A stretch of 62,159 bases of DNA from Burkholderiales bacterium (GTDB lineage: Bacteria; Pseudomonadota; Gammaproteobacteria; Burkholderiales; SG8-41), in contig JAYOED010000006.1 of NCBI GenBank assembly GCA_038106575.1, forward strand, positions 1 through 62,159. Direction: 5' to 3'. Below the pieces are notes generated by a model. The model had not been told where the DNA came from. It saw nothing but the letters and a program-made list of their open reading frames with translations, and searched no databases. Positions 3,159 through 23,213 of the stretch are shown here, one piece after another. Position 1 is the stretch's first letter, and each line of letters opens with the position of its first letter. The translations under genes were made by a program, and so were the position numbers.

Positions 3159-3908
3159 ATGTCCATCGTCGCCCCCTGGCTGCACCTGGGCTATGTCATT
3201 CCGCATCTCTATACCGACATGGACGCCTACCAGTTCTATCGCGTCGCGCCTGACGGCATGATGCTGGTGACCACTGGACTGAATCTCAGGGAATATTCGC
3301 TCGCCGCTGTCGAATCCGAGCTGCCTGCGTTGTGGAGCGCATTTGACCGGCTGAAACACAAGAAGGTGGACCGTATCGCGTTGAGCGGCGTGCCGGTGGC
3401 CTCGGTGCTGGGCCGGAAAAAGATGTGCGAGATTCTCGACGAGGGCGCGCAGCGCACCGGCATCGCCTGCGACACCGACCTCGAGGCCCATATTGCGACG
3501 CTGCAGCATTTCGGTATCACCAGGCTGGCACTCGCCACGCGCTGGCCCGAGCACGTCAACGCCGCATTGTCGAACTACCTGAAGGAAGCCGGTATCGAAG
3601 TGGTATCGCTACGCGCGCAGGGACGCAACCTTGAGCAGAACAAACTGTCGAGCCCGCTCGCCGACCATGAGCTCGCGCTGGAACTAGGTCGTGCCGCACT
3701 CGCCGCAGCGCCCGAAGCGCAGGCCCTGCTGTTGCCGGGCGGACTGTGGTTTGCCATCCATGCCGTACCGACACTTGAAGCCGAATTCGGCAAACCCGTC
3801 CTGCTCAACATCCTGTCAACGACCTGGGCAGCGCTCAATGCCGCACCGAAGCCGCTGCAGCACAAGCCCGATCCGTGTTGGGGCAAGGTGCTGGGATGTC
3901 TTGCATGA
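3159..3908 (+). CDS. Asp/Glu/hydantoin-racemase-superfamily protein (maleate isomerase / arylmalonate decarboxylase-like)
   Basis: 249 aa. The architecture resembles maleate isomerase and AMDase (RLALATRW...YLKEAGIEVV...LGKPVLLNILSTTWAAL). AGGAG RBS upstream. The stop TGA overlaps the next gene's ATG (ATGA at 3905-3908). Confidence 0.65.
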   Translation: MSIVAPWLHLGYVIPHLYTDMDAYQFYRVAPDGMMLVTTGLNLREYSLAAVESELPALWSAFDRLKHKKVDRIALSGVPVASVLGRKKMCEILDEGAQRTGIACDTDLEAHIATLQHFGITRLALATRWPEHVNAALSNYLKEAGIEVVSLRAQGRNLEQNKLSSPLADHELALELGRAALAAAPEAQALLLPGGLWFAIHAVPTLEAEFGKPVLLNILSTTWAALNAAPKPLQHKPDPCWGKVLGCLA

Positions 3909-4945
3909 GCCTGCCGGGTTTCGCCAGCAATGTCATTGAGGTCGATGATGCCACCGCGGCGAATGAACTCTATCAGCGAAACGGCTGGACCGACGGCCTG
4001 CCTATTGTGCCGCCGACCGAAGAAGCGGTCGCACGTTTTCTTGAGGCGTCGCACTGCGCCCCAGATGATGTCATCGGCATCGAGCCGGTTCGCCGGCGCA
4101 CATTGACCGCAGAAAAAATCGCCATTGCCGCAGTGATGGCCGGCTGCCTGCCTGAATACCTGCCGGTGGTGCTGGCCGCGGTACGGGCGATGTGCCAGCC
4201 CGAATACGCACTGCATGGCAGCACGGCAAGCACCGGCGGCAGCGCACCCTTCCTCGTCGTCAACGGCCCGATCCGCAACGTACTCGGCATGAACGCGACG
4301 CATAATGTTCTCGCTAACGCCTGCCGCGCCAATGCCACCATCGGCCGCAGTATCCGCCTGATCCTGCTCAACGTGCTCGGTGGCATACCGGGCCAGCTCG
4401 ACCGCTCGACGCTGGGGCATCCGGGCAAGTTCACCTTCTGCATCGCGGAAGACGAGGAAGATTCACCGTGGCTGCCGCTGTCGGTGGAACGCGGAATTCC
4501 CGCCGGCACCTCGGCGGTGACCGCATTGCAGGTCGAGTCGCCGCACCAGATCATGAATGAGTGGACGCACGACCCGCGGGAAATCCTCGATACCTACGTT
4601 GCGGCGATGCGCAGCAACCTGCTGACCTATTCGATCTGGGAAGGCAACTACGCCTTTGTCATCCCCAAGCAGCACCGCGAGATTTTCGCTGCCGCCGGCT
4701 GGAGCAAGCAGAACATCCGCGACTACACCTTTGAGAAAGCCTGCGTGAAGCGCGGCGAGTGGCGCAGCGTCGGCAAGGCCGCGGTCGCCGGCCGCAAGGA
4801 CGAAGACCGGCTTTACCGCGCGCTGCGCGCGCCGGACGACCTGCTGGTGATCGCCGCCGGCGGACCAGCCGGCGGTTTCGGCGCCATCCTGCCGCCGTGG
4901 TACGGTAAGAAATCGCTCGCCGTGACGACGCCCATACAACCCTGA
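3905..4945 (+). CDS. uncharacterised DGLPxxPPT-motif protein, stand-alone partner of the UGSC selenoprotein
   Basis: 346-aa ORF, with the start set at ATG 3905 (ATGA overlap with the upstream stop). It is homologous by eye to the C-terminal ~350 aa of the proteins at 8386..10116 and 18403..20103 (GWTDGLPIVPPT, MAGCLPEYLPVVLAAV, VVNGPI). Confidence 0.7.
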   Translation: MSLPGFASNVIEVDDATAANELYQRNGWTDGLPIVPPTEEAVARFLEASHCAPDDVIGIEPVRRRTLTAEKIAIAAVMAGCLPEYLPVVLAAVRAMCQPEYALHGSTASTGGSAPFLVVNGPIRNVLGMNATHNVLANACRANATIGRSIRLILLNVLGGIPGQLDRSTLGHPGKFTFCIAEDEEDSPWLPLSVERGIPAGTSAVTALQVESPHQIMNEWTHDPREILDTYVAAMRSNLLTYSIWEGNYAFVIPKQHREIFAAAGWSKQNIRDYTFEKACVKRGEWRSVGKAAVAGRKDEDRLYRALRAPDDLLVIAAGGPAGGFGAILPPWYGKKSLAVTTPIQP

Positions 4946-4967: not shown

Positions 4968-5498
4968 ATGACCCTGCGCGTCCTCGACCCCCGGCAATCG
5001 GCCCACGGCGAAGCCCTGCGCCTCGCGCCGCCACTAGCCTCCCTCGACGGTGCCGTCATCGGCATGATCGACAACGCCAAGATCGGCACCGAGCGCCTGT
5101 TCGACTTCGTTGAAGAAATTCTCAAGAAGGAACACGGCGTGCGCGAATGCATCCGCCGCCGCAAGCCCGACGCATCACGACCGGTGCCGGAGGCCATGTT
5201 GCTGGAAATGCGCGGCGCCGATGCCGTGCTGGCGGCAATCGGCGACTGAGGCAGCTGCTCGTCGTGCAGTCTGCACGACGCAATCGCAGCAGAACGGCTC
5301 GGCATCCCGGCGGTGGCCATCATCACCGACCGCTTTGCGCGCACCGCTCAGTCGGTAAGCCAGGTCAACGGACTGAAGGACTATCCCTTTGCGGTGATTT
5401 CGCACCCGGTGGCCAACAACAACGATGAAGTGCTACGCGAGAAAGCGCGCATCGCGCTCGCCGACATCCTACCGATGCTGATGCAGCGATCCGCGTAA
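4968..5498 (+). CDS. UGSC-motif selenoprotein (in-frame UGA at 5247-5249 read as selenocysteine), 176 aa
   Basis: ORFs 4968..5249 and 5313..5498 share one frame and are separated only by a TGA. Reading through gives ...ADAVLAAIGD-U-GSCSSCSLHDAIAAERLGIPAVAIITD..., conserved in two paralogs that carry TGA at the same column. AGGAGAG RBS before ATG 4968. Hairpin at 5260-5280. Confidence 0.8.
5260..5280 (+). promoter_or_regulatory. putative bacterial SECIS hairpin
   Basis: The 8-bp perfect stem CGUCGUGC/GCACGACG with loop AGUCU starts 11 nt after UGA 5247-5249. Confidence 0.6.
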
Positions 5499-6796: not shown

Positions 6797-8386
6797 CTAG
6801 GGGTAGCGGCGAAAGCCAAAATCGGAATCGCTGGCCACTGCATCAAGCAGCTCCACTTCCCATCTCAGGTATTCACGCATTGCCTGTTCAACGTTGTCCT
6901 TGCGGTCGAGCGCGCGATAGCTCAGGTCATCGGCAGCGCCGGTCATACGCGCGTCCCCAGTTTCCAGTCCGTAACCCGCCAATTGCCACGCAGCAGTGCC
7001 GCCAGTAAGCGCCTTGACTGGGGTTGCAGTCAGGGTCGCCGCGTCGGCCGCAGCCAGACGCGCCAGCATTTCTTCGGCTGCCGTGAACACCAGCAGCGCC
7101 GCCTGGGGAATTTTTATCAGCTGGTCCCGTATCCGGGAACGCACCACGTGCCACGCACCCGGAATATGTCCCTCGCGATACTGCAGGCTGCTACCAAGGT
7201 CGGCCACCTGCGCCTTGCCGTCTGCCAGCAGGCTCTGCAATTCCGCCGCCGCCACTGTTGCGGAGCATGGCTGTGCGCCGTCGAGCAGTGTCACCGGCAC
7301 CGGCCCGCGCTCGGTCAACGATGCCTCATCACAGGCCAGCACGTGCACTTCATCGTGACCCATCTGCGCCAGCCATGCCGCGGTCATCGTTGCACGAACG
7401 CCATCATTGTCGGTTAGTACTACCACCGACGGACGCACCGCGATGAAGGTATCGGTTGCCTGCACCAGTTGTCCGCCAGGTGCGGATAAGGCTCCCGGCA
7501 GATGGCCGGCTTCGAATTCCTCAGGGGCGCGCACGTCCAGCAGGTACAGCGTGCGCTTGCCGTCGGCCCGCAGTGCCTGCAACCGGGCAGCATCAATACG
7601 GCGGATGCCGAAGCGCTGCGCCACACGCTCTGCCGCCTGCTGTGCCCAAGCCCTGCCTTTGGTCGAAGGCGGCGGAACCGCCTCGGTGCGGCCGTGGTTC
7701 AGCTGCAGGCCAGCCAGCTTCCAGCCCTGGGTGCCGTCCTTCAGTGCATAGACCGGGTTCGGAAAACCAGCATTGATCAGCACCTGAGCGCCGATGATGC
7801 TGCGCGTGCGTCCGCCGCAGTTGACCACAACCGTCGTCTGCGCGGAACGCACGAAATCGGTCATGCGGTACGGTAGCTCCGCGCTCGGACAATCCCAGGC
7901 ACCGGGTATGCTGTTGCGACGGAATTCCGCCATTGGCCGGCTGTCGACGACCACCATGTCCCTGCTAGATTTCATCCACGCGTCGAGTTCGGTTGCCGTA
8001 ACTTCGCGCGGCGCATCTTCGTGCTGGATGTATTCGCCGAAAGCCTTGCTCGGCACGTAAACACCGGTGTAGAGCCGGAATCCCGCGGCCTTCCACGCCG
8101 ACGTTCCGCCATCGATCAACTGCACGTCGGCATAGCCGCCCGCCAGCAGTTTCACCGCAGCTAATTCCGCCAGGCCTTCGCCGCCGTCACAAACGACGAT
8201 ACGCACGTTCTTGCGCGGCAGCAGCGCCTGCACACGCAACTCGAGCACGCTCAACGGTACATTCGACACCCGCAGCAGATGACCATCTCCCGAATAGACA
8301 CCCTCCTCGCGTACGTCGAGTACGGCAATTTCTTCGCCATCGTCGAGCAGTCCCCGTAGTTGTCGAGGCGTGATCCGTCGCACCAT
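6797..8386 (-). CDS. four-domain rhodanese-like sulfurtransferase
   Basis: 529 aa from ATG 8386 (MVRRITPRQLRGLL...). Four rhodanese repeats are present. The active-site loops carry Cys in repeats 1 (VVCDGGEG) and 2 (VNCGGRTRS) but not in repeats 3 (LTDNDGVR) or 4 (FTAAEEM). The ATG overlaps the upstream TGA stop (TGATG). The 612-aa track ORF is an upstream extension. Confidence 0.8.
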   Translation of the reverse strand: MVRRITPRQLRGLLDDGEEIAVLDVREEGVYSGDGHLLRVSNVPLSVLELRVQALLPRKNVRIVVCDGGEGLAELAAVKLLAGGYADVQLIDGGTSAWKAAGFRLYTGVYVPSKAFGEYIQHEDAPREVTATELDAWMKSSRDMVVVDSRPMAEFRRNSIPGAWDCPSAELPYRMTDFVRSAQTTVVVNCGGRTRSIIGAQVLINAGFPNPVYALKDGTQGWKLAGLQLNHGRTEAVPPPSTKGRAWAQQAAERVAQRFGIRRIDAARLQALRADGKRTLYLLDVRAPEEFEAGHLPGALSAPGGQLVQATDTFIAVRPSVVVLTDNDGVRATMTAAWLAQMGHDEVHVLACDEASLTERGPVPVTLLDGAQPCSATVAAAELQSLLADGKAQVADLGSSLQYREGHIPGAWHVVRSRIRDQLIKIPQAALLVFTAAEEMLARLAAADAATLTATPVKALTGGTAAWQLAGYGLETGDARMTGAADDLSYRALDRKDNVEQAMREYLRWEVELLDAVASDSDFGFRRYP

Positions 8387-10116
8387 CAAATCCGGCACTC
8401 GTCGGCGGTGCAACCCAGATCGCGATCCGATTCGGCCAGCAGCCGGTCGAATGACTCCGGCGTGCGGATCACCCGTCCCACGACTGCAGGCGAATGCGCC
8501 TGCAGCCACTGGCTGTGCGTCGGATGGTCGCCGCCGGCGACCACCAGGATCAGGTTGTCGGGTTTCTGCGCGATCGGCCACGGATCGAGCCTGATGCTGT
8601 CGCGCGCCACCGGATTGGCATCGATCTCGATCCACGCCGGCCCGCCGCCGCGCTTGAGTTGCGCCATCGGAATCTTCGAATTTTCCCAGAGAAAATCACG
8701 CAGCTTCTTCGGCGTCCAGCCGAGCTTCGCCATCATGCCCGCGACCACCGGCGAGATCAGCATCGCGCCGGGCGTGCCCTTCTCCCATCCTGCCAGCGCG
8801 GCAAGATTCGGCGTGCGCATGAAATCCGCCATGCGCCACAGGCCCTGGGTGATGTCCTCTTCCGGCGTTTCCTTTTTTGCGCCACGGCGGCGGATGTTGC
8901 TGACGCCGCTGGCGAAAAACACCGACACTGCGTTTGTACCGGGCTCGAAACCGTGGCGCTGGGTCGCATGCGGCGCCCAGCCCTCGGGCAGGCTCGCCTC
9001 ATCCTCGGCAAACACAGCGTTGGTGTAGCGCATCGCGCCGAAGATCGCCATGGTGCCGATGCCCGGCAGCGCGCCGCCGACGTTCTGCTGCAGCAGGCGC
9101 AGCGCGCGGCCGATGCTGGCACCGGCGGGCCGCTGCGGATCAGGGCCGAGACAGCCAAAACCGGAATTGAGGCGGATGTCCTCCGCAATCGGGCCGTTGA
9201 CGATGACGACCGGAAAAGGGCTGCCCGAAGTCGCCTGCACCTGATCGAACAGCGTTGCGGGATCGAGGCAGGCCTCAACCGCAGCAACCAGCACCGGCAG
9301 GTACTCGGGTCGACCCCCGGCCATCGCCAGCGCCACCGCGCAGGTCTCGACCGTGGTGACGCCGCCGCGCGGCGGGAACTTGCCCAGCACCTGTGTGCGC
9401 GGGTAAGCCGAGCCGCGCAGTATCCAGTCGACGCGCTCGCGTGTCGCCGGCCACACCGGCAGGCCGTCGCCCCACAGATTGGTGATCAGCAGGTTGTTGG
9501 CTTTCTGCAGCGCGTCCTCATAGGTTTTCCCCTCCACGCTCAACATTGGCAGTTCGCCGTCTGCGGATTGCGCGTAATCGGATTTCCATTTCATCAATCC
9601 GTTGTAGAACTCCTTCTTGCGGGTGGAAATCGCCGTCAGATCGCTTCCCGGCAGGAACATATCGATCGGAAACGTCACCATCGCCGCATCGGGCGCAAGA
9701 CCGAGGCCCGACACCGCATTCTTCATCACGCCGACAAAATCCGTCCGCGTCAGGGTGACGGTGGGTATTCCCAGTGTTTCTATCCTCGCGGCAGCACGGC
9801 CGCAAGCGGTGGCGCAGGAGCCTCAGGCCGCGTTGCCGACGATGACCGCTTCAACGCCGCTTTTCTGGACCAGCGCAGCGGTCTCCTCGGTGGGAATCAG
9901 CACATTACCCTGGGGATAGGCATCGATCGGCAGCAGTTCCGCAGTCGGATAATCGGCCTTGATCAGATCGCGCAGCAGCGGCAGCATGCGAAACGCCTGC
10001 CACTGCTCGTTACTGACGAAACCGATGCGCTTGCCGTCGAGGGTATCGATGCGTGGCGCAAACGGCAGGGTGACCTCCAGCGCGCCGGACGGATCATGAA
10101 ATTCAAGTGTGACCAT
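8386..10116 (-). CDS. fused UGSC-motif selenoprotein + DGLPxxPPT domain (UGA at 9823-9825 read as Sec), 576 aa
   Basis: ORFs 9823..10116 and 8386..9729 share one frame and are joined across a TGA: ...VEAVIVGNAA-U-GSCATACGRAAARIETLGIPTVTL... The C-terminal part has NLWGDGLPVWPAT, MAGGRPEYLPVLVAAV and IVNGPI. GGAGG RBS before ATG 10116. Confidence 0.8.
9785..9806 (-). promoter_or_regulatory. putative bacterial SECIS hairpin
   Basis: Stem CUUGCGGC/GCCGCGAG (8 bp, one G-U pair) with loop CGUGCU, starting 17 nt after the UGA. Confidence 0.55.
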
Positions 10117-10142
10117 TGGTTAAACCTCCTTCGCCGATAATA

Positions 10143-16290: not shown

Positions 16291-16782
16291 TCAGCTCTGG
16301 GCGAAAACCGTTTCGATCAGCAGATCGATCGCCGCAGCCGCGAACGCATGCATGTTGGCGACGCGGTCTGTGCTGCCGGTCTCCATCGTGATCGCGCGTT
16401 CGACTGCCGGACCGACGACTGCAAGACAGGCGTGTCCCGCCGCGTAGCCGTAGCGGCTGCCGGTCGGCCCGGCAGCGCCGGTTTCTGTCAATGACCATTC
16501 GGTTGAAAGCTTTTCGCGCACGCGGCGCGCTTTCAGCAACGCATAGACTTCGGTGGAAGGCGTCATGTCCTTCATCTCGGCATCACTGATGCCGAGCAGT
16601 GCGCGGCGCAGTTCATAGGTATAGACCACCAGCCCGCCACGGCAGCAGGCTGAAGCACCGGGCACCGCTAGCAGCGCGGCATTGATCAACCCGCCCGCCG
16701 AGGATTCGGCGACGGCGATCATTTCACTGCGCGCGCTCAACAGTTTCACCGCACGTTCAGCGCGGAGCAGCAGTTCTTTCAT
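16291..16782 (-). CDS. CinA C-terminal-domain / PncC-like nicotinamide-nucleotide amidohydrolase family protein
   Basis: 163 aa from ATG 16782 (MKELLLRAERAVKLL...), with IAVAESSAGGLI as in CinA/PncC. Confidence 0.75.
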   Translation of the reverse strand: MKELLLRAERAVKLLSARSEMIAVAESSAGGLINAALLAVPGASACCRGGLVVYTYELRRALLGISDAEMKDMTPSTEVYALLKARRVREKLSTEWSLTETGAAGPTGSRYGYAAGHACLAVVGPAVERAITMETGSTDRVANMHAFAAAAIDLLIETVFAQS

Positions 16783-16810
16783 GTTGACCTTAATCTCTAG
16801 AGAATATATT

Positions 16811-18403
16811 TCAGTGCGGTGCACGCCTGATCATTTCGCCCGGCAGCGCATCGCTGCGGTTGCCGTGTTCTAGTACTGGCACGCCGTTGACCATAACCGC
16901 GACAACGCCAACCGCGAACTGGTGCGGGTCAGCATAGGTCGCACGTTCGGCGATGGTTACCGGGTCAAATACGGTCACATCGGCACGGCAGCCTGGACGC
17001 AACAGACCTCGGTCAGCCAGCCCAAGCGCCGCAGCCGAACGCCCTGTCATCTTGGATACCGCGGTTTCCAGCGGCAGCAGGTTCTCCTCGCGCACGTAGC
17101 GCCCGAGCACGCGGGCGAAGGTGCCGTAGAACCGCGGATGCGGTTTACCCTGGCCGGTAATCCCGGTCGGTGCAACTGCGTTGCCGTCCGAACCCACCAT
17201 CACTTCGGGAGCCCGCACGAATGCACGCACGTCATCCTCGGAAATTGATTCGACGACCACCCGAGTCTGGCCGCGGTCGGCAATAATGTAGTCGAGCGCT
17301 GCGTCGAACGGGTCCTTGTTCTGTTCCAGCGCAATCTGCGCGATGGTTTTGCCGGCGTGATGTCCAAGATCAGGCGATATCGAAATACGCACCGCATCCC
17401 AGGAGCGGATTCTTCCAAAATTGTTCAACCCGCCTGCGGCGATCTCGTCACGAACCCGTGCACGAACCGCCTCGTCGCCCAGCCTTACCAGCATGGCATC
17501 GATACCGTCCTGCTGCAGCCACGACGGCATCAGATTGCGCAGCGGATTGGATGCGGCGGTGTACGGATACTGGTCGCAGTCAATCTGCACGCCATCCGCA
17601 CGCGCTGCGGCTAGCCGCGCGAGGAAACGCTCCACAGTGCCCCAGTTGTCAGTACCCGACACCTTGGCATGCACAATCTGCACATGGACTCCCGTCTGCG
17701 CGCCGAATTCAATCGCCTCCTCGGCGGCATCGAACACCGCGTTGGCTTCGTCCCGCAGATGGGTGAAATAGCGCGCACCGTGGCGCCGCAGTACGCGACC
17801 GAGTTCGACCATCTCTTCGCCGCGCGCATACGACCCGGGCGCGGTAAACAGTCCTGACGACAGCCCCAGCGCTCCGGCTGCGAGCGCCTCCTCGAGCAAG
17901 GACACCATCAGCGCAAGCTCCACCGGTGTGGGTTTTCGAGCCTCCATACCCATGGCCATCAGGCGCAGCGTGTTGTGACCGACCAGCATTACGCGATTGA
18001 CAGCTGTGGCCGGATAGTGTGCCGCATAATCAGCGTAGCTCGTATCGCGGAATTCCAGCCACGGCGCGCTAGGCGAAAGGTATTGGCGTAGCGCGGCGGC
18101 GCGTCCCGGCAGGCAGGGTGCACAGGAATAACCGCAATGCCCGATCACTTCGGTAGTCACACCCTGGCGAATCTTGCTCTCAGCCTGCGGCATCAGCGGC
18201 AAAGTCCAGTCCGAATGTGTCTTGATGTCGATAAAACCGGGGGCAACCACCAGGCCCCGCGCATCGATCACCCGCGCACCGGTAACAGGCAGGTCACGAC
18301 CGACCGCTGCGATACATCCGTCTCGCAGCGCTACGTCAGCCGACTGTGGCGGGCCGCCGGTGCCGTCAATGACGGTACCGCCACGTACAACGATCGACTC
18401 CAT
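16811..18403 (-). CDS. N-acyl-D-amino-acid deacylase (D-aminoacylase) family amidohydrolase
   Basis: 530 aa from ATG 18403 (MESIVVRGGTVIDGTGG...APGFIDIKTHSD...EVIGHCGYSCAP). The ATG overlaps the upstream selenoprotein's TGA stop (TGATG). Confidence 0.85.
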   Translation of the reverse strand: MESIVVRGGTVIDGTGGPPQSADVALRDGCIAAVGRDLPVTGARVIDARGLVVAPGFIDIKTHSDWTLPLMPQAESKIRQGVTTEVIGHCGYSCAPCLPGRAAALRQYLSPSAPWLEFRDTSYADYAAHYPATAVNRVMLVGHNTLRLMAMGMEARKPTPVELALMVSLLEEALAAGALGLSSGLFTAPGSYARGEEMVELGRVLRRHGARYFTHLRDEANAVFDAAEEAIEFGAQTGVHVQIVHAKVSGTDNWGTVERFLARLAAARADGVQIDCDQYPYTAASNPLRNLMPSWLQQDGIDAMLVRLGDEAVRARVRDEIAAGGLNNFGRIRSWDAVRISISPDLGHHAGKTIAQIALEQNKDPFDAALDYIIADRGQTRVVVESISEDDVRAFVRAPEVMVGSDGNAVAPTGITGQGKPHPRFYGTFARVLGRYVREENLLPLETAVSKMTGRSAAALGLADRGLLRPGCRADVTVFDPVTIAERATYADPHQFAVGVVAVMVNGVPVLEHGNRSDALPGEMIRRAPH

Positions 18404-20103
18404 CAACGTCGCCCCGGCATCGCAATGGCCTTGCACACTGGAAACCCCAGTACCCCGTTGTGCGCGAACACGTAAATGCTGTTGCGGCCGAGATCGCCGG
18501 TGACAACGATCTGATAATCCCCGGGCCTCCATACCACGGGCACCAGCCGCTCCGGATCATCGGACTCGTGGAACAGCTTTGGAATGCGCCCGGCCTCGTG
18601 TTCCTCCTTCAGATTCCATGTCGGCTTCTGCGTCCAGTCGCGGAGAATGCGCTCGAAACGGTGAGCGGGCATGCGCGCCCGCGCAAACAGTTCCTCGCGG
18701 AATTTCTGCTTCGACCAGCCGCTGCCGGCGATGGTCTCGGCGACGATCGGCGACATCAGAATCAGCGGCCGCAGCGTGTCGTAGCCCTGCCCTACCGAAA
18801 ACATGATCTGCCATGAATACTGGCTGATCACCGCGTCGGCGATGTAAGGCATCAACTCTTCGGGTTTCGATCCCGACACCGACGAAATGTGGTTGCCGCC
18901 GGTGTAGCGCCCGACCGACAGCGCGTTGGTGCCTGCGGCGAAACCGTAATCGGCGCAGTTCGGCGTCCAGCCGATTTTCTTCACCACGTCCTCGTTCTCG
19001 GCCACCACCACGCGCCAAGTGTTGCCGAAAGTGGCCTTGTCGTTGCCGTGCGGCAGGAAGCCAGCGATGTTGCGCAGGCACAGCCGCCAGAAGCGGCCGA
19101 CCGTGGAATTAGCCTGGAAACCATCGCGCATCACGCCCTGCGTGTAATTGAAACCGAGTTCCTTGATCACCGGGCCGTTGAGGACGATCAGGTTCTCGCC
19201 GCCGGGGGTATTGCCGCTGTGCTCTACGCCATAGTTGTGATCCGCCATCGCTTCCACCGCCGCCACCAGCACCGGCATGTACTCCGGGCGGCAGCCCGCC
19301 ATTACGCCGTTGACTGCGGCGCTCCACACCGTCGCCGTGCGGTTGTCGGGCAACAGCACGCCAATGACTTCATCGGGTTTGCGGTCGGTATATTTTAAGA
19401 AAGCCTCGACCTTCTCCACCGTAGGCGGCACGACCGGCAGCCCGTCCGACAGCTGGTTGGCGATAAAATATTCGTTGATCTCTTCAAATGAGCCGGTGCA
19501 GACGACATCACGCGCCCCCGGTTCGCCGCTGACGGTTTTCGCCGCCGGCATGGTCAGCAGGTTGTCGATCACGCTGTTAAGCGTCAGCTCGCGCACGTTC
19601 TGCTGCAACGCTTCCTTGCTCTGCAAGCCAGGATGGCCACGCACCGGTGCCACCGCAATGTTCGGAAAACCTAAACCCTGCGAGGCCGCCTTTGCCAGCG
19701 TCATGAAGCTCTCACAGACCAGCGTCGAGGAGGGAATCCCTGCGCCTTCCGCCGCCACACTCGCCCGCAACACGGCGGGCGTGCAGCTTCCTCAACAACC
19801 CATCCCGGAAACGACGGCGTCGGCACCGAGCTCGCGAAGCTTCTGCGGCAGGTTGGCCACCACATTACGCTCGTCACTGCCATGGGTATTGCCGAACAGA
19901 TCCCAGTGCAGGAATTTCACGCCCGGATATTTCGCCGCCAGGCTTTTCTCAAGCTGCTCGAACACCTCGTTGCCGCGGAACACATAGTCCCACACCCAGG
20001 CGATGGTTTTGCCTTGCAGCGTATCGAGCCGTTTCGCCAGCGGTTTGACCTTGGCCTGGCGCGGACCGCGCGGCCACAGCGCCGCGTATTGCCGATCTGT
20101 CAT
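18403..20103 (-). CDS. fused UGSC-motif selenoprotein + DGLPxxPPT domain (UGA at 19792-19794 read as Sec), 566 aa
   Basis: ORFs 19792..20187 and 18403..19773 share one frame and are joined across a TGA: ...ADAVVSGMGC-U-GSCTPAVLRASVAAEGAGIPSSTL... The C-terminal part has NQLSDGLPVVPPT, MAGCRPEYMPVLVAAV and VLNGPV. Start set at ATG 20103, preceded by an AGGAG RBS. Confidence 0.8.
19762..19781 (-). promoter_or_regulatory. putative bacterial SECIS hairpin
   Basis: 7-bp perfect GC-rich stem CGCCCGC/GCGGGCG with loop CGUGUU, starting 11 nt after the UGA. Confidence 0.6.
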
Positions 20104-22430: not shown

Positions 22431-23213
22431 TCACTCCCACAGCCGCTCGGGTAGCGGCAGCCCGGCGAGATCGGCGGCGGTCAGCGGCCGGTCGGGGGTG
22501 ACGCCGATGCGCTCTAATACCTCAATCAGCTGCCGGCAGTGCTGCGCCGAATGCCAAGTCACCCGCTCAAGCACTAGGTGCGCGGGGGTTTCTCCAAAAT
22601 AAGTCTTGAGCACGCGTTCGAGTTCGCGATCTTCGATCCCGGTCCACCAGGATTCGAAGCGCTTCCACACGCCTTCGCCGTAGCACGCGATGTCGTCGCC
22701 GCTCTGTAATGCTTCCGGCGGCTCGTTATCGGCAATCTTCACCGAATACTCGGCGCCGTCCCAGGTTTCGAGGAACGACTCGCCGATGCGGAACACGTGG
22801 TAGCACAGCGTACGAATTACACGCTCGCGATGCGGAATCACGCGGTCACGAAAATGCTCCGCCGGAAACTGGCGCGCGTAACGCGCCGCAGCGGCAAACA
22901 CCATTCCGTATTTTCTGTACAGCTGTTCCGGAGAAAGGCGATCCTTACCCGGCAGCGGCAGTCTGGCAAACTTGGCAAAGGGATCGAGCATCTGGCCGAA
23001 TGCGTATTTATCGCCCTTCGCCAGCACCGGAACCTTGCGGATGCCGTATTTGTTGAACAGCAATTCACGGCCGCCCGGGTCGTTCAGCACATCGATCACG
23101 AGCATGTCCACACCATTTTTCGAAAGAAACTCTTTCGTGCGAAGGCAGCTACTTCACCCGGGCTGGGTGAAATAAAGAAATTTGTCGGCGGGGATGTCGG
23201 TCAATGTCGTCAC
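22431..23213 (-). CDS. glutaredoxin-like (U-x-x-C) + DinB/YfiT-like domain selenoprotein candidate (UGA at 23154-23156), ~260 aa
   Basis: The frame upstream of track ORF 22431..23111 stays open except for one TGA: (V)TTLTDIPADKFLYFTQPG-U-SSC-LRTKEFLSKNGVDMLVIDVLNDPGGRELL..GIRKVPVL. This is a Grx/Trx fold with Sec at the first redox position. The C-terminal domain has a DinB-like HSAQH motif. The start (GTG 23213 or TTG 23204) is uncertain. Confidence 0.65.
23121..23137 (-). promoter_or_regulatory. putative bacterial SECIS hairpin
   Basis: Stem CGAAAG/CUUUCG (6 bp) with loop AGUUU, starting 17 nt after the UGA. It is weaker and more AU-rich than the other three. Confidence 0.4.

What the first reader, a model, noticed from the sequence alone, without database searches (positions are those of the whole stretch)
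8386..10116. Second UGSC selenoprotein, here fused to a ~350-aa domain (UGA at 9823-9825, minus strand)
ORFs 9823..10116 and 8386..9729 are in one frame (offset 387 nt). Reading through the TGA gives ...VEAVIVGNAA-U-GSCATACGRAAARIETLGIPTVTLTRTDFVGVMKNAV..., which is collinear with the 4968..5498 protein. An 8-bp GC-rich hairpin with loop CGUGCU begins 17 nt after the UGA (9785-9806). The full product would be 576 aa. Without recoding, the 97-aa N-terminal piece and a 447-aa piece with no sensible start or RBS would be called separately.
Basis: partly seen in the sequence, partly recalled or inferred. Interest (0 to 1): 0.85.

Follow-up and report, generated by a model that had tools for sequence, protein, structure and literature searches.

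The report
UGSC selenoprotein fused to unknown domain
This is a real 576-residue selenoprotein gene whose in-frame UGA codes for selenocysteine; it belongs to the known but uncharacterised UGSC family, is fused to a large unnamed domain, and is routinely split into two fragments by gene callers.

Summary
On the minus strand, ATG 10116 (Shine-Dalgarno AAGGAGG 8 nt upstream) opens a frame that runs to TGA 8388-8386, broken only by TGA 9825-9823.

Evidence for selenocysteine at this TGA:
- The Pfam UGSC domain (PF24696) spans the TGA.
- Full-length 575-576-aa homologues carry Cys there (…GNAA-C-GSC…).
- All 80 closest species-level loci (Burkholderiales/Betaproteobacteria MAGs) keep TGA at that codon.
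- The 31 codons between the TGA and the gene callers' Met have pN/pS 0.16.
- A conserved hairpin follows: GCGGC/GCCGC stem, CGUGC[AU] loop, and one covarying pair.

Sec machinery could not be checked. None lies in the 62 kb window.

The C-terminal ~425 aa have no Pfam, NCBIfam or PDB match. The same domain occurs as a separate gene next to the stand-alone UGSC gene at 4968..5498, and fused again in a third Sec gene at 20103..18403. Five of five distant stand-alone copies also have a TGA-split UGSC gene next door. UGSC is therefore probably the redox or catalytic selenol module of a two-part enzyme.

The family is known, and a "UGSC/Unknown_1" fusion was reported in 2008. I rate this a new member of a known kind, of moderate interest.

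The parts
8386..10116 (-). Complete coding sequence of a 576-aa selenoprotein: N-terminal UGSC domain (residues ~7-150, Sec98) fused to a ~425-aa uncharacterised domain
   Evidence: Translation; Pfam PF24696 at 72.8 bits over residues 7-150; 100%-coverage Cys homologues of 575-576 aa; coding-type GC1/GC2/GC3 pattern on both sides of the TGA
10125..10131 (-). Shine-Dalgarno AAGGAGG, 8 nt upstream of ATG 10116
   Evidence: Read directly from the sequence
9823..9825 (-). In-frame UGA read as selenocysteine (residue 98, motif U-G-S-C)
   Evidence: TGA in 80/80 orthologous loci; Cys codon at the same column in full-length homologues
9785..9806 (-). SECIS-like hairpin. The conserved core stem is 9803-9799 / 9792-9788 (GCGGC/GCCGC) with apical loop 9798-9793 (CGUGCU). 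The lower stem is 3 further pairs in this clade.
   Evidence: MFE fold; RNAalifold consensus on 80 sequences; core invariant at synonymous sites; pair 9805/9787 covaries AU35/UG16/GC9/CG4 with 9 unpaired, and 0/500 shuffles reach that score
8389..9666 (-). C-terminal 'partner' domain (residues 151-576). Conserved motifs: W-x-DGLP-x-x-P-x-T, MAG[GC]RPEY-x-P, VNGP, IGR-x-x-R, AEDE. This subfamily also has a C-terminal GC-x4-C tail.
   Evidence: No Pfam, NCBIfam or PDB hit; 3468 representative clusters in exhaustive HMMER; paralogues in the window; AF2 pLDDT 79-86 with no significant Foldseek PDB match
6797..8386 (-). Downstream gene for a 529-aa protein with four rhodanese domains. Its ATG overlaps the selenoprotein stop (TGATG). 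Same operon in this lineage only.
   Evidence: Pfam Rhodanese with 4 stretches, E = 4e-49; directly downstream in the 10 closest loci only; terminator-like hairpin at 6807-6793

Best explanation
Window 10116..8386 (minus strand) is one gene for a 576-residue selenoprotein. UGA 9825-9823 is decoded as selenocysteine by the bacterial SelB/tRNA-Sec system. Decoding is directed by a stem-loop in the coding sequence that starts 16-19 nt after the UGA, with a GC-rich 5-bp core and a CGUGC[AU] loop.

Shown:
- Sec98 sits in a U-G-S-C motif at the N-terminus of a helix of a UGSC domain. The predicted fold is a three-layer alpha/beta sandwich.
- This domain is fused to a ~425-aa domain of a large, unnamed family.
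- That partner domain is also found as a separate gene next to stand-alone UGSC genes.

Inferred:
- The two parts work as one enzyme. The U-x-x-C selenenylsulfide/selenol-thiol centre would be the redox or nucleophilic module that serves the active site of the partner domain.
- The partner domain has conserved D, T, R and E-x-E residues but no universally conserved Cys.
- The substrate is probably a small organic acid, given the surrounding catabolic genes.
- In this lineage the gene is translationally coupled to a four-rhodanese sulfurtransferase, which hints at persulfide or selenium-sulfur chemistry.
For: Single gene with Sec:
- The frame, RBS and TGA are as described.
- The Pfam UGSC domain spans the TGA.
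- Cys is present at that column in homologues that are 60-63% identical over their full length.
- TGA is present in 80/80 species-representative loci at 69-95% identity. The motif is U-G-S-C in 53 and U-G-A-C in 27.
- pN/pS is 0.16 for the 31 codons between the TGA and the called Met.

SECIS:
- RNAalifold predicts the 5-bp core. GGC and CGU third positions are invariant across 80 loci.
- A G-C to G-U change occurs in 12 loci.
- One flanking pair shows four Watson-Crick/wobble types, and 0/500 shuffles reach the observed score. Slid registers score 0.01-0.05 against 0.20.
- All three UGA sites in the window have a hairpin 13-19 nt downstream with G/U-containing loops.

Functional coupling of UGSC and the partner domain:
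- The partner is paralogous to the separate gene 3875..4945 that abuts stand-alone UGSC 4968..5498 (E = 1e-35), and to the second fusion 20103..18403.
- Of 83 diverse family representatives, 27 carry UGSC and 1 carries an FTR-beta/FtrB redox module.
- Five of five distant stand-alone partners have a TGA-split UGSC gene adjacent.

Context: carboxylate-catabolic neighbours, namely CoA-transferase III, Amdase, aconitase-like, UbiD, an Frd-like flavoprotein and TctC receptors.
Against: - Sec machinery (selA, selB, selC, selD) was not found in the 62 kb window and could not be sought in the rest of the genome.
- The hairpin in the single sequence is no more stable than shuffled GC-rich sequence (z = -0.5).
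- A Cys-form orthologue also folds a hairpin at the same place, so part of the structure may follow from Ala/Gly/Arg codons.
- Only one base pair covaries. The other five never vary or vary on one side only.
- The NCBIfam equivalog model scores 43.6 bits against a cutoff of 125.
- The catalytic role of the partner domain, its substrate and the direction of electron flow are pure inference. Structural matches to class-I fumarate hydratase, Toblerone-fold and PrpD enzymes are not significant (E >= 0.013, TM ~0.2).
- The rhodanese neighbour is confined to the 10 closest loci.
- TctC genes are very numerous in these genomes, so their proximity may be chance.
Confidence: 0.9

Rival explanations
1. 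Two separate genes: a 97-aa UGSC-like fragment ending at a genuine UGA stop, and an independent 446-aa protein starting at ATG 9726. This is how public gene calls read it.
For: Every close relative in the protein database is called this way: 444-465-aa products and 97 + 446 aa in L001/L002. No Sec machinery is seen in the window.
Against: No Shine-Dalgarno precedes ATG 9726. The 31 intervening codons are under purifying selection in frame, pN/pS 0.16. The Pfam UGSC domain needs residues on both sides of the TGA. Cys-containing homologues are uninterrupted 575-576-aa proteins. The frame relation is kept in 80/80 loci.
Confidence: 0.03
2. A pseudogene: a Cys-form fusion gene inactivated by a TGC/TGT-to-TGA nonsense mutation.
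For: TGA is one substitution away from a Cys codon.
Against: The same TGA is fixed in 80 species-level lineages down to 69% protein identity, with no further stops or frameshifts and strong purifying selection downstream. Two paralogous genes in the window carry TGA at the homologous position.
Confidence: 0.01
3. The UGA is recoded but not as selenocysteine. It could be read through by near-cognate tRNA (Trp or Cys) or inserted as Cys by a SelB-like route, with the hairpin acting only as a read-through stimulator.
For: Sec machinery is unverified for this genome. A Cys-form orthologue keeps a hairpin at the same site, so the hairpin is not by itself diagnostic of Sec.
Against: The position aligns with the redox Cys of a family catalogued as a Sec/Cys family (NF041046 'UGSC family (seleno)protein'; PMC2398784, which reports 255 Sec forms in GOS). 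The hairpin's position and G/U-containing loop fit bacterial SECIS rules (my own knowledge of the E. coli fdhF and bSECISearch models). Three such genes in one window imply a dedicated system.
Confidence: 0.05

Closest known systems
UGSC family (seleno)protein (NCBIfam NF041046; Pfam PF24696; 'UGSC-containing protein' of Zhang & Gladyshev, PMC2398784)
   Same: The N-terminal 150 aa match the Pfam model (72.8 bits, cutoff 25). The U-G-S-C motif is at the same column. The protein is collinear with the bona fide family member at 4968..5498 (131.9 bits to NF041046). It shows Sec/Cys alternation among homologues. Function is unknown in both.
   Different: Typical members are stand-alone proteins of ~150-175 aa. 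This one is a 576-aa fusion and scores only 43.6 bits against the NCBIfam cutoff of 125, so NCBI's annotation rule does not rescue it. 27 of 80 orthologues have U-G-A-C instead of U-G-S-C.
'UGSC/Unknown_1' fusion selenoprotein from the Global Ocean Sampling survey (PMC2398784, Fig. S1A)
   Same: A UGSC selenoprotein domain fused to a conserved domain of unknown function, which also exists on its own.
   Different: Identity of 'Unknown_1' with the domain here could not be verified. The figure is held only as an image and the sequence supplement is truncated. The GOS reads were short fragments, whereas here the full 576-aa architecture, its SECIS and its genomic context are resolved.
E. coli fdhF-type bacterial SECIS (SelB-binding stem-loop just 3' of the UGA)
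   Same: A stem-loop inside the coding sequence, starting 16-19 nt after the UGA. It has a GC-rich apical stem, an apical loop containing G-U, and in most clades an unpaired U just below the apical stem.
   Different: The 6-nt loop CGUGC[AU] differs in sequence. There is no Rfam model match. SelB binding is untested.
U-x-x-C / C-x-x-C redox modules fused or adjacent to their client enzymes (e.g. Prx-like and Trx-like selenoprotein fusions in PMC2398784; ferredoxin:thioredoxin reductase beta)
   Same: The redox motif sits at a helix N-terminus. It is fused or adjacent to a partner domain. One family member swaps in or adds an FTR-beta/FtrB module.
   Different: The predicted UGSC fold gives only weak Foldseek matches, to Rossmann/flavodoxin-like three-layer alpha/beta proteins (DHQS N-domain, RpiB, TIR; E 1.5e-3 to 5e-2). 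It did not match thioredoxin, contrary to the 'likely Trx-like fold' statement in the literature.

Membership tests
UGSC family (Pfam PF24696) | HMM score above Pfam's gathering threshold | tested here: met
   72.8 bits against a cutoff of 25, residues 7-150, spanning the Sec codon
UGSC family (seleno)protein, NCBIfam NF041046 (equivalog) | HMM score above the curated cutoff of 125 bits | tested here: not met
   43.6 bits, E = 3e-11, residues 27-147. The neighbour 4968..5498 scores 131.9. The protein is therefore a UGSC-domain protein but not an equivalog of the stand-alone family.
UGSC family | U/C-G-S-C motif at the conserved strand-helix junction, with Sec/Cys alternation among homologues | tested here: met
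   U-G-S-C in the window; C-G-S-C in 575-576-aa homologues; Sec aligned with the Sec of the 4968..5498 protein
Bacterial selenoprotein gene | In-frame UGA conserved among orthologues and aligned with Cys in homologues | tested here: met
   80/80 loci have TGA; Cys in full-length homologues
Bacterial selenoprotein gene | Coding constraint continues downstream of the UGA | tested here: met
   pN/pS is 0.16 for the 31 codons after the TGA, 0.28 for the 30 codons before it, and 0.11 for the 30 codons after the called Met
Bacterial selenoprotein gene | SECIS stem-loop shortly 3' of the UGA, with an apical loop 16-37 nt from the UGA containing G (bSECISearch-type criteria, from my own knowledge) | tested here: met
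   The apical loop starts 24 nt after the UGA. The core stem is conserved and one pair covaries. Caveats: the single-sequence z-score is not significant, and a Cys-form orthologue also folds there.
Bacterial selenoprotein gene | Genome encodes selA, selB, selC (tRNA-Sec) and selD | not testable with these tools
   None in the 62 kb window (ARAGORN found 0 tRNAs; Pfam survey of 34 ORFs).
Bacterial selenoprotein gene | Selenium physically present in the protein | not testable with these tools
   Needs 75Se labelling or mass spectrometry
UGSC/Unknown_1 fusion (PMC2398784) | The fused domain is the same as 'Unknown_1' | not testable with these tools
   Fig. S1A is held as an image only, and Dataset S1 was cut before the UGSC section
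Thioredoxin-fold oxidoreductases | Trx fold (beta-alpha-beta-alpha-beta-beta-alpha) around the redox motif | tested here: inconclusive
   The AF2 model (pLDDT 86) gives a repeated beta-alpha pattern. The weak Foldseek hits are Rossmann/flavodoxin-like, none is thioredoxin, and none has E <= 1e-3.

The most novel reading that the evidence does not exclude
UGSC and the unnamed ~350-430-aa 'partner' domain form an obligate two-part selenoenzyme. The partner family has >3000 sequence clusters, no Pfam or NCBIfam model, and no detectable PDB relative by sequence or predicted fold. In this enzyme the U-x-x-C centre would be the catalytic or redox cofactor for a new type of reaction on small organic acids. 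This would give the first functional handle on one of the most abundant orphan selenoprotein families in aquatic metagenomes.
Probability: 0.4. Interest if true: 0.65.

Novelty: new member of a known kind. Interest (0 to 1): 0.42.

Why it matters
There are two reasons.

The first is practical. This subfamily is mis-annotated everywhere we looked. All 80 species representatives carry the TGA, and the close relatives in the public protein database are listed as 444-465-aa downstream fragments (97 aa + 446 aa in the two loci whose gene calls I saw). NCBI's UGSC model scores it below its cutoff. Selenoproteome censuses therefore probably undercount it, and the catalytic Sec is lost from the predicted proteins.

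The second is biological. UGSC-containing proteins are among the most abundant selenoproteins in ocean and freshwater metagenomes, yet they have no known function. A consistent link between UGSC and one large, unnamed domain family, either fused or adjacent, gives a concrete partner and a genomic context (organic-acid catabolic islands, sometimes with FTR-beta and Frd-like electron-transfer proteins). Biochemistry could start from there.

Tried and rejected
- Rfam, at gathering threshold over the whole window and at permissive E-value on 9740-9860, found no SECIS or other RNA family.
- Single-sequence folding with shuffles was not significant in this GC-rich context. I relied on the 80-locus alignment instead.
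- I looked for Sec machinery in the window. ARAGORN and a Pfam scan of 34 ORFs found none.
- I tried to identify the window's own record through a 100%-identical protein (P0241, 67,858-bp NCBI contig). It is not retrievable.
- I tried to read 'Unknown_1' from the 2008 paper's supplement. The figure is an image and the dataset is truncated.
- Sequence searches of the C-terminal domain against PDB found nothing, both with a single sequence and with an 83-sequence profile. Pfam and NCBIfam also found nothing.
- Foldseek against PDB gave no hit at E <= 1e-3, for either the full-length or the C-terminal model. I considered calling the partner domain a class-I fumarate-hydratase-like or PrpD-like enzyme and rejected it, because TM is ~0.2 and probability <= 0.33.
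- I considered the four-rhodanese gene to be a conserved partner and rejected that as general, since it is present in only the 10 closest loci.
- I considered TctC receptors as operon partners. Their position and strand are too variable to claim this.
- ORF 16811..18532 looked by length like a fourth fusion. It translates to a protein whose sequence looks like a D-aminoacylase-type amidohydrolase (by eye, no family search run).
Full report
**1. The observation**

On the minus strand an ATG at 10116 is preceded by AAGGAGG (10131-10125) with an 8-nt spacer. It opens a frame that runs to the TGA stop at 8388-8386, interrupted once by TGA at 9825-9823.

- Both pieces show the coding GC1/GC2/GC3 pattern: 0.69/0.41/0.72 before the TGA and 0.65/0.51/0.80 after it.
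- The hairpin CUUGCGGC-CGUGCU-GCCGCGAG lies at 9806-9785.
- The stretch between the TGA and the ATG that gene callers use (9726) has no start codon and no ribosome-binding site.

**2. Identity of the N-terminal part**

- Residues 7-150, which span the TGA, match Pfam PF24696 'UGSC family' at 72.8 bits against a threshold of 25.
- NCBIfam NF041046 'UGSC family (seleno)protein' matches at E = 3e-11, but only 43.6 bits against a cutoff of 125. The neighbouring 4968..5498 protein reaches 131.9 bits.
- The two proteins are collinear: 27% identity, E = 4e-13, with Sec aligned to Sec.

**3. Is the UGA decoded?**

A database search returned two kinds of relative. One kind is 575-576-aa proteins at 60-63% identity and 100% coverage. 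They carry the Pfam UGSC domain and have Cys where the window has TGA (...IIGNAA-C-GSCSTALGRAAAKLE...). The other kind is closer relatives at 75-95% identity that are all called as 444-465-aa fragments starting just after the TGA.

A scan of one genome per GTDB species returned 80 loci at 69-95% identity, all Burkholderiales/Betaproteobacteria MAGs.

- All 80 have TGA at exactly this codon. The motif is U-G-S-C in 53 and U-G-A-C in 27.
- Across these loci the 31 codons between the TGA and the called Met have pS 0.38, pN 0.06 and pN/pS 0.16. The 30 codons before the TGA give 0.28, and the 30 after the Met give 0.11.

This rules out a genuine stop with two genes, and it rules out a pseudogene.

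**4. The RNA element**

RNAalifold on the 80 aligned 60-nt segments predicts a 5-bp stem GCGGC/GCCGC with loop CGUGC[AU]. In window coordinates these are 9803-9799, 9792-9788 and 9798-9793.

- Synonymous positions inside the stem (GGC Gly, CGU Arg, UGC Cys) never vary, although synonymous sites elsewhere vary freely.
- 12 loci change a G-C pair to G-U through an Ala-to-Val substitution.
- The third positions of the two flanking Ala codons (9805 and 9787) form AU in 35, UG in 16, GC in 9 and CG in 4 distinct sequences, with 9 unpaired. No shuffle of 500 reaches the observed covariation score, and slid registers give 0.01-0.05 against 0.20.
- In the window's clade the lower stem is instead a contiguous 3-bp extension. 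The register below the core therefore differs among clades.
- The other two UGA sites in the window have comparable hairpins 13-14 nt downstream, with loops GUC and CGUGUU.

There are caveats. The single sequence folds no better than shuffles (z about -0.5). One Cys-form orthologue (L087) also folds a hairpin there, which could be a fossil SECIS or a by-product of Ala/Arg codons. No Rfam model matches.

**5. What could not be checked**

The window holds no tRNA and no SelA, SelB or SelD domain among 34 surveyed ORFs. The rest of the genome is out of reach. A 100%-identical protein points to a 67,858-bp NCBI contig, but it could not be fetched.

**6. The C-terminal domain**

Residues ~151-576 have no detectable relative in curated resources.

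- There is no Pfam or NCBIfam match, for three paralogues and for 83 diverse relatives.
- There is no PDB relative by sequence or by profile.

An exhaustive HMMER search finds 3468 representative clusters at E <= 1e-3, of which 2090 are at <= 1e-10. Their lengths cluster near 345-375 aa (stand-alone), 430-470 aa (most likely Sec fusions truncated at the UGA) and 540-575 aa (Cys fusions).

Conserved motifs are W-x-DGLP-x-x-P-x-T, MAG[C/G]-x-PEY-x-P, VNGP, IGR-x-x-R and AE-x-E. No Cys is conserved family-wide. The subfamily of the finding has its own invariant Cys322 and a disordered C-terminal GC-x4-C tail.

Structure prediction:
- AlphaFold2 models are confident: pLDDT 86 and pTM 0.88 for a full-length Cys homologue, and pLDDT 79 and pTM 0.81 for the window's C-terminal domain.
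- Foldseek finds no PDB match at E <= 1e-3.
- The full-length model weakly hits Rossmann/flavodoxin-like domains (DHQS, RpiB, TIR). These hits disappear when the C-terminal domain is searched alone, so they belong to the UGSC domain.
- The C-terminal domain's best hits are class-I fumarate hydratase, Toblerone-fold hydrolases and PrpD-type enzymes. With E >= 0.013 and TM ~0.2 they are not significant.

**7. UGSC and the partner domain belong together**

The window contains three versions of the same pair.

- System A is a separate 356-aa partner gene (3875..4945) directly upstream of stand-alone UGSC (4968..5498).
- System B is the finding.
- System C is a second Sec fusion at 20103..18403, with TGA at 19794-19792.

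The partner domains are 30-32% identical to each other, at E = 1e-35.

Of 83 diverse family representatives, 27 carry a UGSC domain. One (P0491) carries a C-terminal ferredoxin:thioredoxin-reductase-beta / FtrB module.

I looked up five distant stand-alone partners at 33-38% identity. All five have a UGSC gene immediately adjacent. For four of them the DNA was available, and it shows an in-frame stop at U-G-[GS]-C. The P0491 locus continues with a fumarate-reductase-like flavoprotein and an Fe-S subunit.

This fusion/fission pattern is strong evidence that UGSC is the redox or catalytic module of a two-part enzyme. The chemistry remains inferred.

**8. Context**

In the window the gene lies between a DinB-type polymerase gene and a gene for a 529-aa protein with four rhodanese domains. 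The rhodanese start overlaps the selenoprotein stop (TGATG), and a terminator-like hairpin follows it. That rhodanese gene is directly downstream only in the 10 closest loci.

TctC/Bug receptors lie within 4 kb in 52 of 80 loci, but at variable positions and on either strand. The wider window is an organic-acid and organosulfonate catabolic island with TauD x2, sulfatase x2, CoA-transferase III, Amdase, aconitase, PrpD and RraA-like genes.

**9. Comparison with what is known**

'UGSC-containing protein' has been a recognised selenoprotein family since the Sargasso Sea and GOS analyses. GOS reported 255 Sec forms against 21 Cys forms, with the family most abundant in non-marine samples. The same paper notes a fusion of UGSC with a conserved domain called 'Unknown_1', which also occurs alone (PMC2398784).

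Later reviews still list the family as uncharacterised (PMC9312934, PMC13188914). I could not verify that 'Unknown_1' is the domain found here.

The finding is therefore a new, full-length, well-supported member of a known kind. The new elements are:
- systematic mis-annotation of this subfamily;
- its SECIS;
- the non-Trx fold prediction;
- the generality of the UGSC-partner link.

**10. Verdict**

Interest is moderate at 0.42. A selenoprotein specialist would not be surprised by a UGSC selenoprotein. The consistent pairing with a large orphan domain family does give a testable route to the function of an abundant orphan selenoprotein.

Noticed in passing
window 18403-20103 (-), TGA at 19792-19794: A third UGSC selenoprotein gene, also fused to the partner domain (~566 aa, starting MTDRQY...). 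A hairpin GCCCGC-CGUGUU-GCGGGC follows 14 nt after the UGA. NCBI labels one truncated relative 'UGSC family (seleno)protein' (P0328).
   Followed up: partly
window 3875-4945 (+) and 4968-5498 (+): A stand-alone 356-aa partner-domain gene sits directly upstream of the stand-alone UGSC selenoprotein gene, and just after an Amdase-family gene (3159-3908). This is the unfused version of the same two-part module.
   Followed up: yes
L086:2452-6619 (GCA_041642995.1 contig JBGGHL010000031.1): A distant partner-domain protein (P0491) carries a C-terminal ferredoxin:thioredoxin-reductase-beta / FtrB-like domain. A TGA-split UGSC gene precedes it, and a fumarate-reductase-like flavoprotein plus an Fe-S subunit follow. 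This may be a complete electron-transfer chain.
   Followed up: partly
L087:5291-5350: The Cys-form orthologue (P0049) still folds a hairpin (CUUGGCG...CGCCAAG) at the position of the SECIS in the Sec forms. It could be a fossil SECIS or a consequence of the Ala/Arg-rich codons. Unexplained.
   Followed up: no
window 6797-8386 (-): A 529-aa protein with four tandem rhodanese domains. Its start codon overlaps the selenoprotein's stop. This arrangement is conserved only in the 10 closest related loci.
   Followed up: partly
P0419 (717 aa, from the representative library): A protein made of two tandem copies of the partner domain, with no UGSC domain.
   Followed up: no
window 16811-18532 (-): A 573-aa ORF that looks like a D-aminoacylase/amidohydrolase lies between a CinA-domain gene (16291-16824) and the third UGSC fusion. 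It is absent from the otherwise syntenic MAG locus L001. Conversely, L001 has TctC and HMGL-like genes that the window lacks.
   Followed up: no
window 22434-23153 (-): A 240-aa ORF with an N-terminal glutaredoxin domain (E = 1.6e-7) next to a TctC receptor gene. It was not examined for a redox link to the UGSC systems.
   Followed up: no
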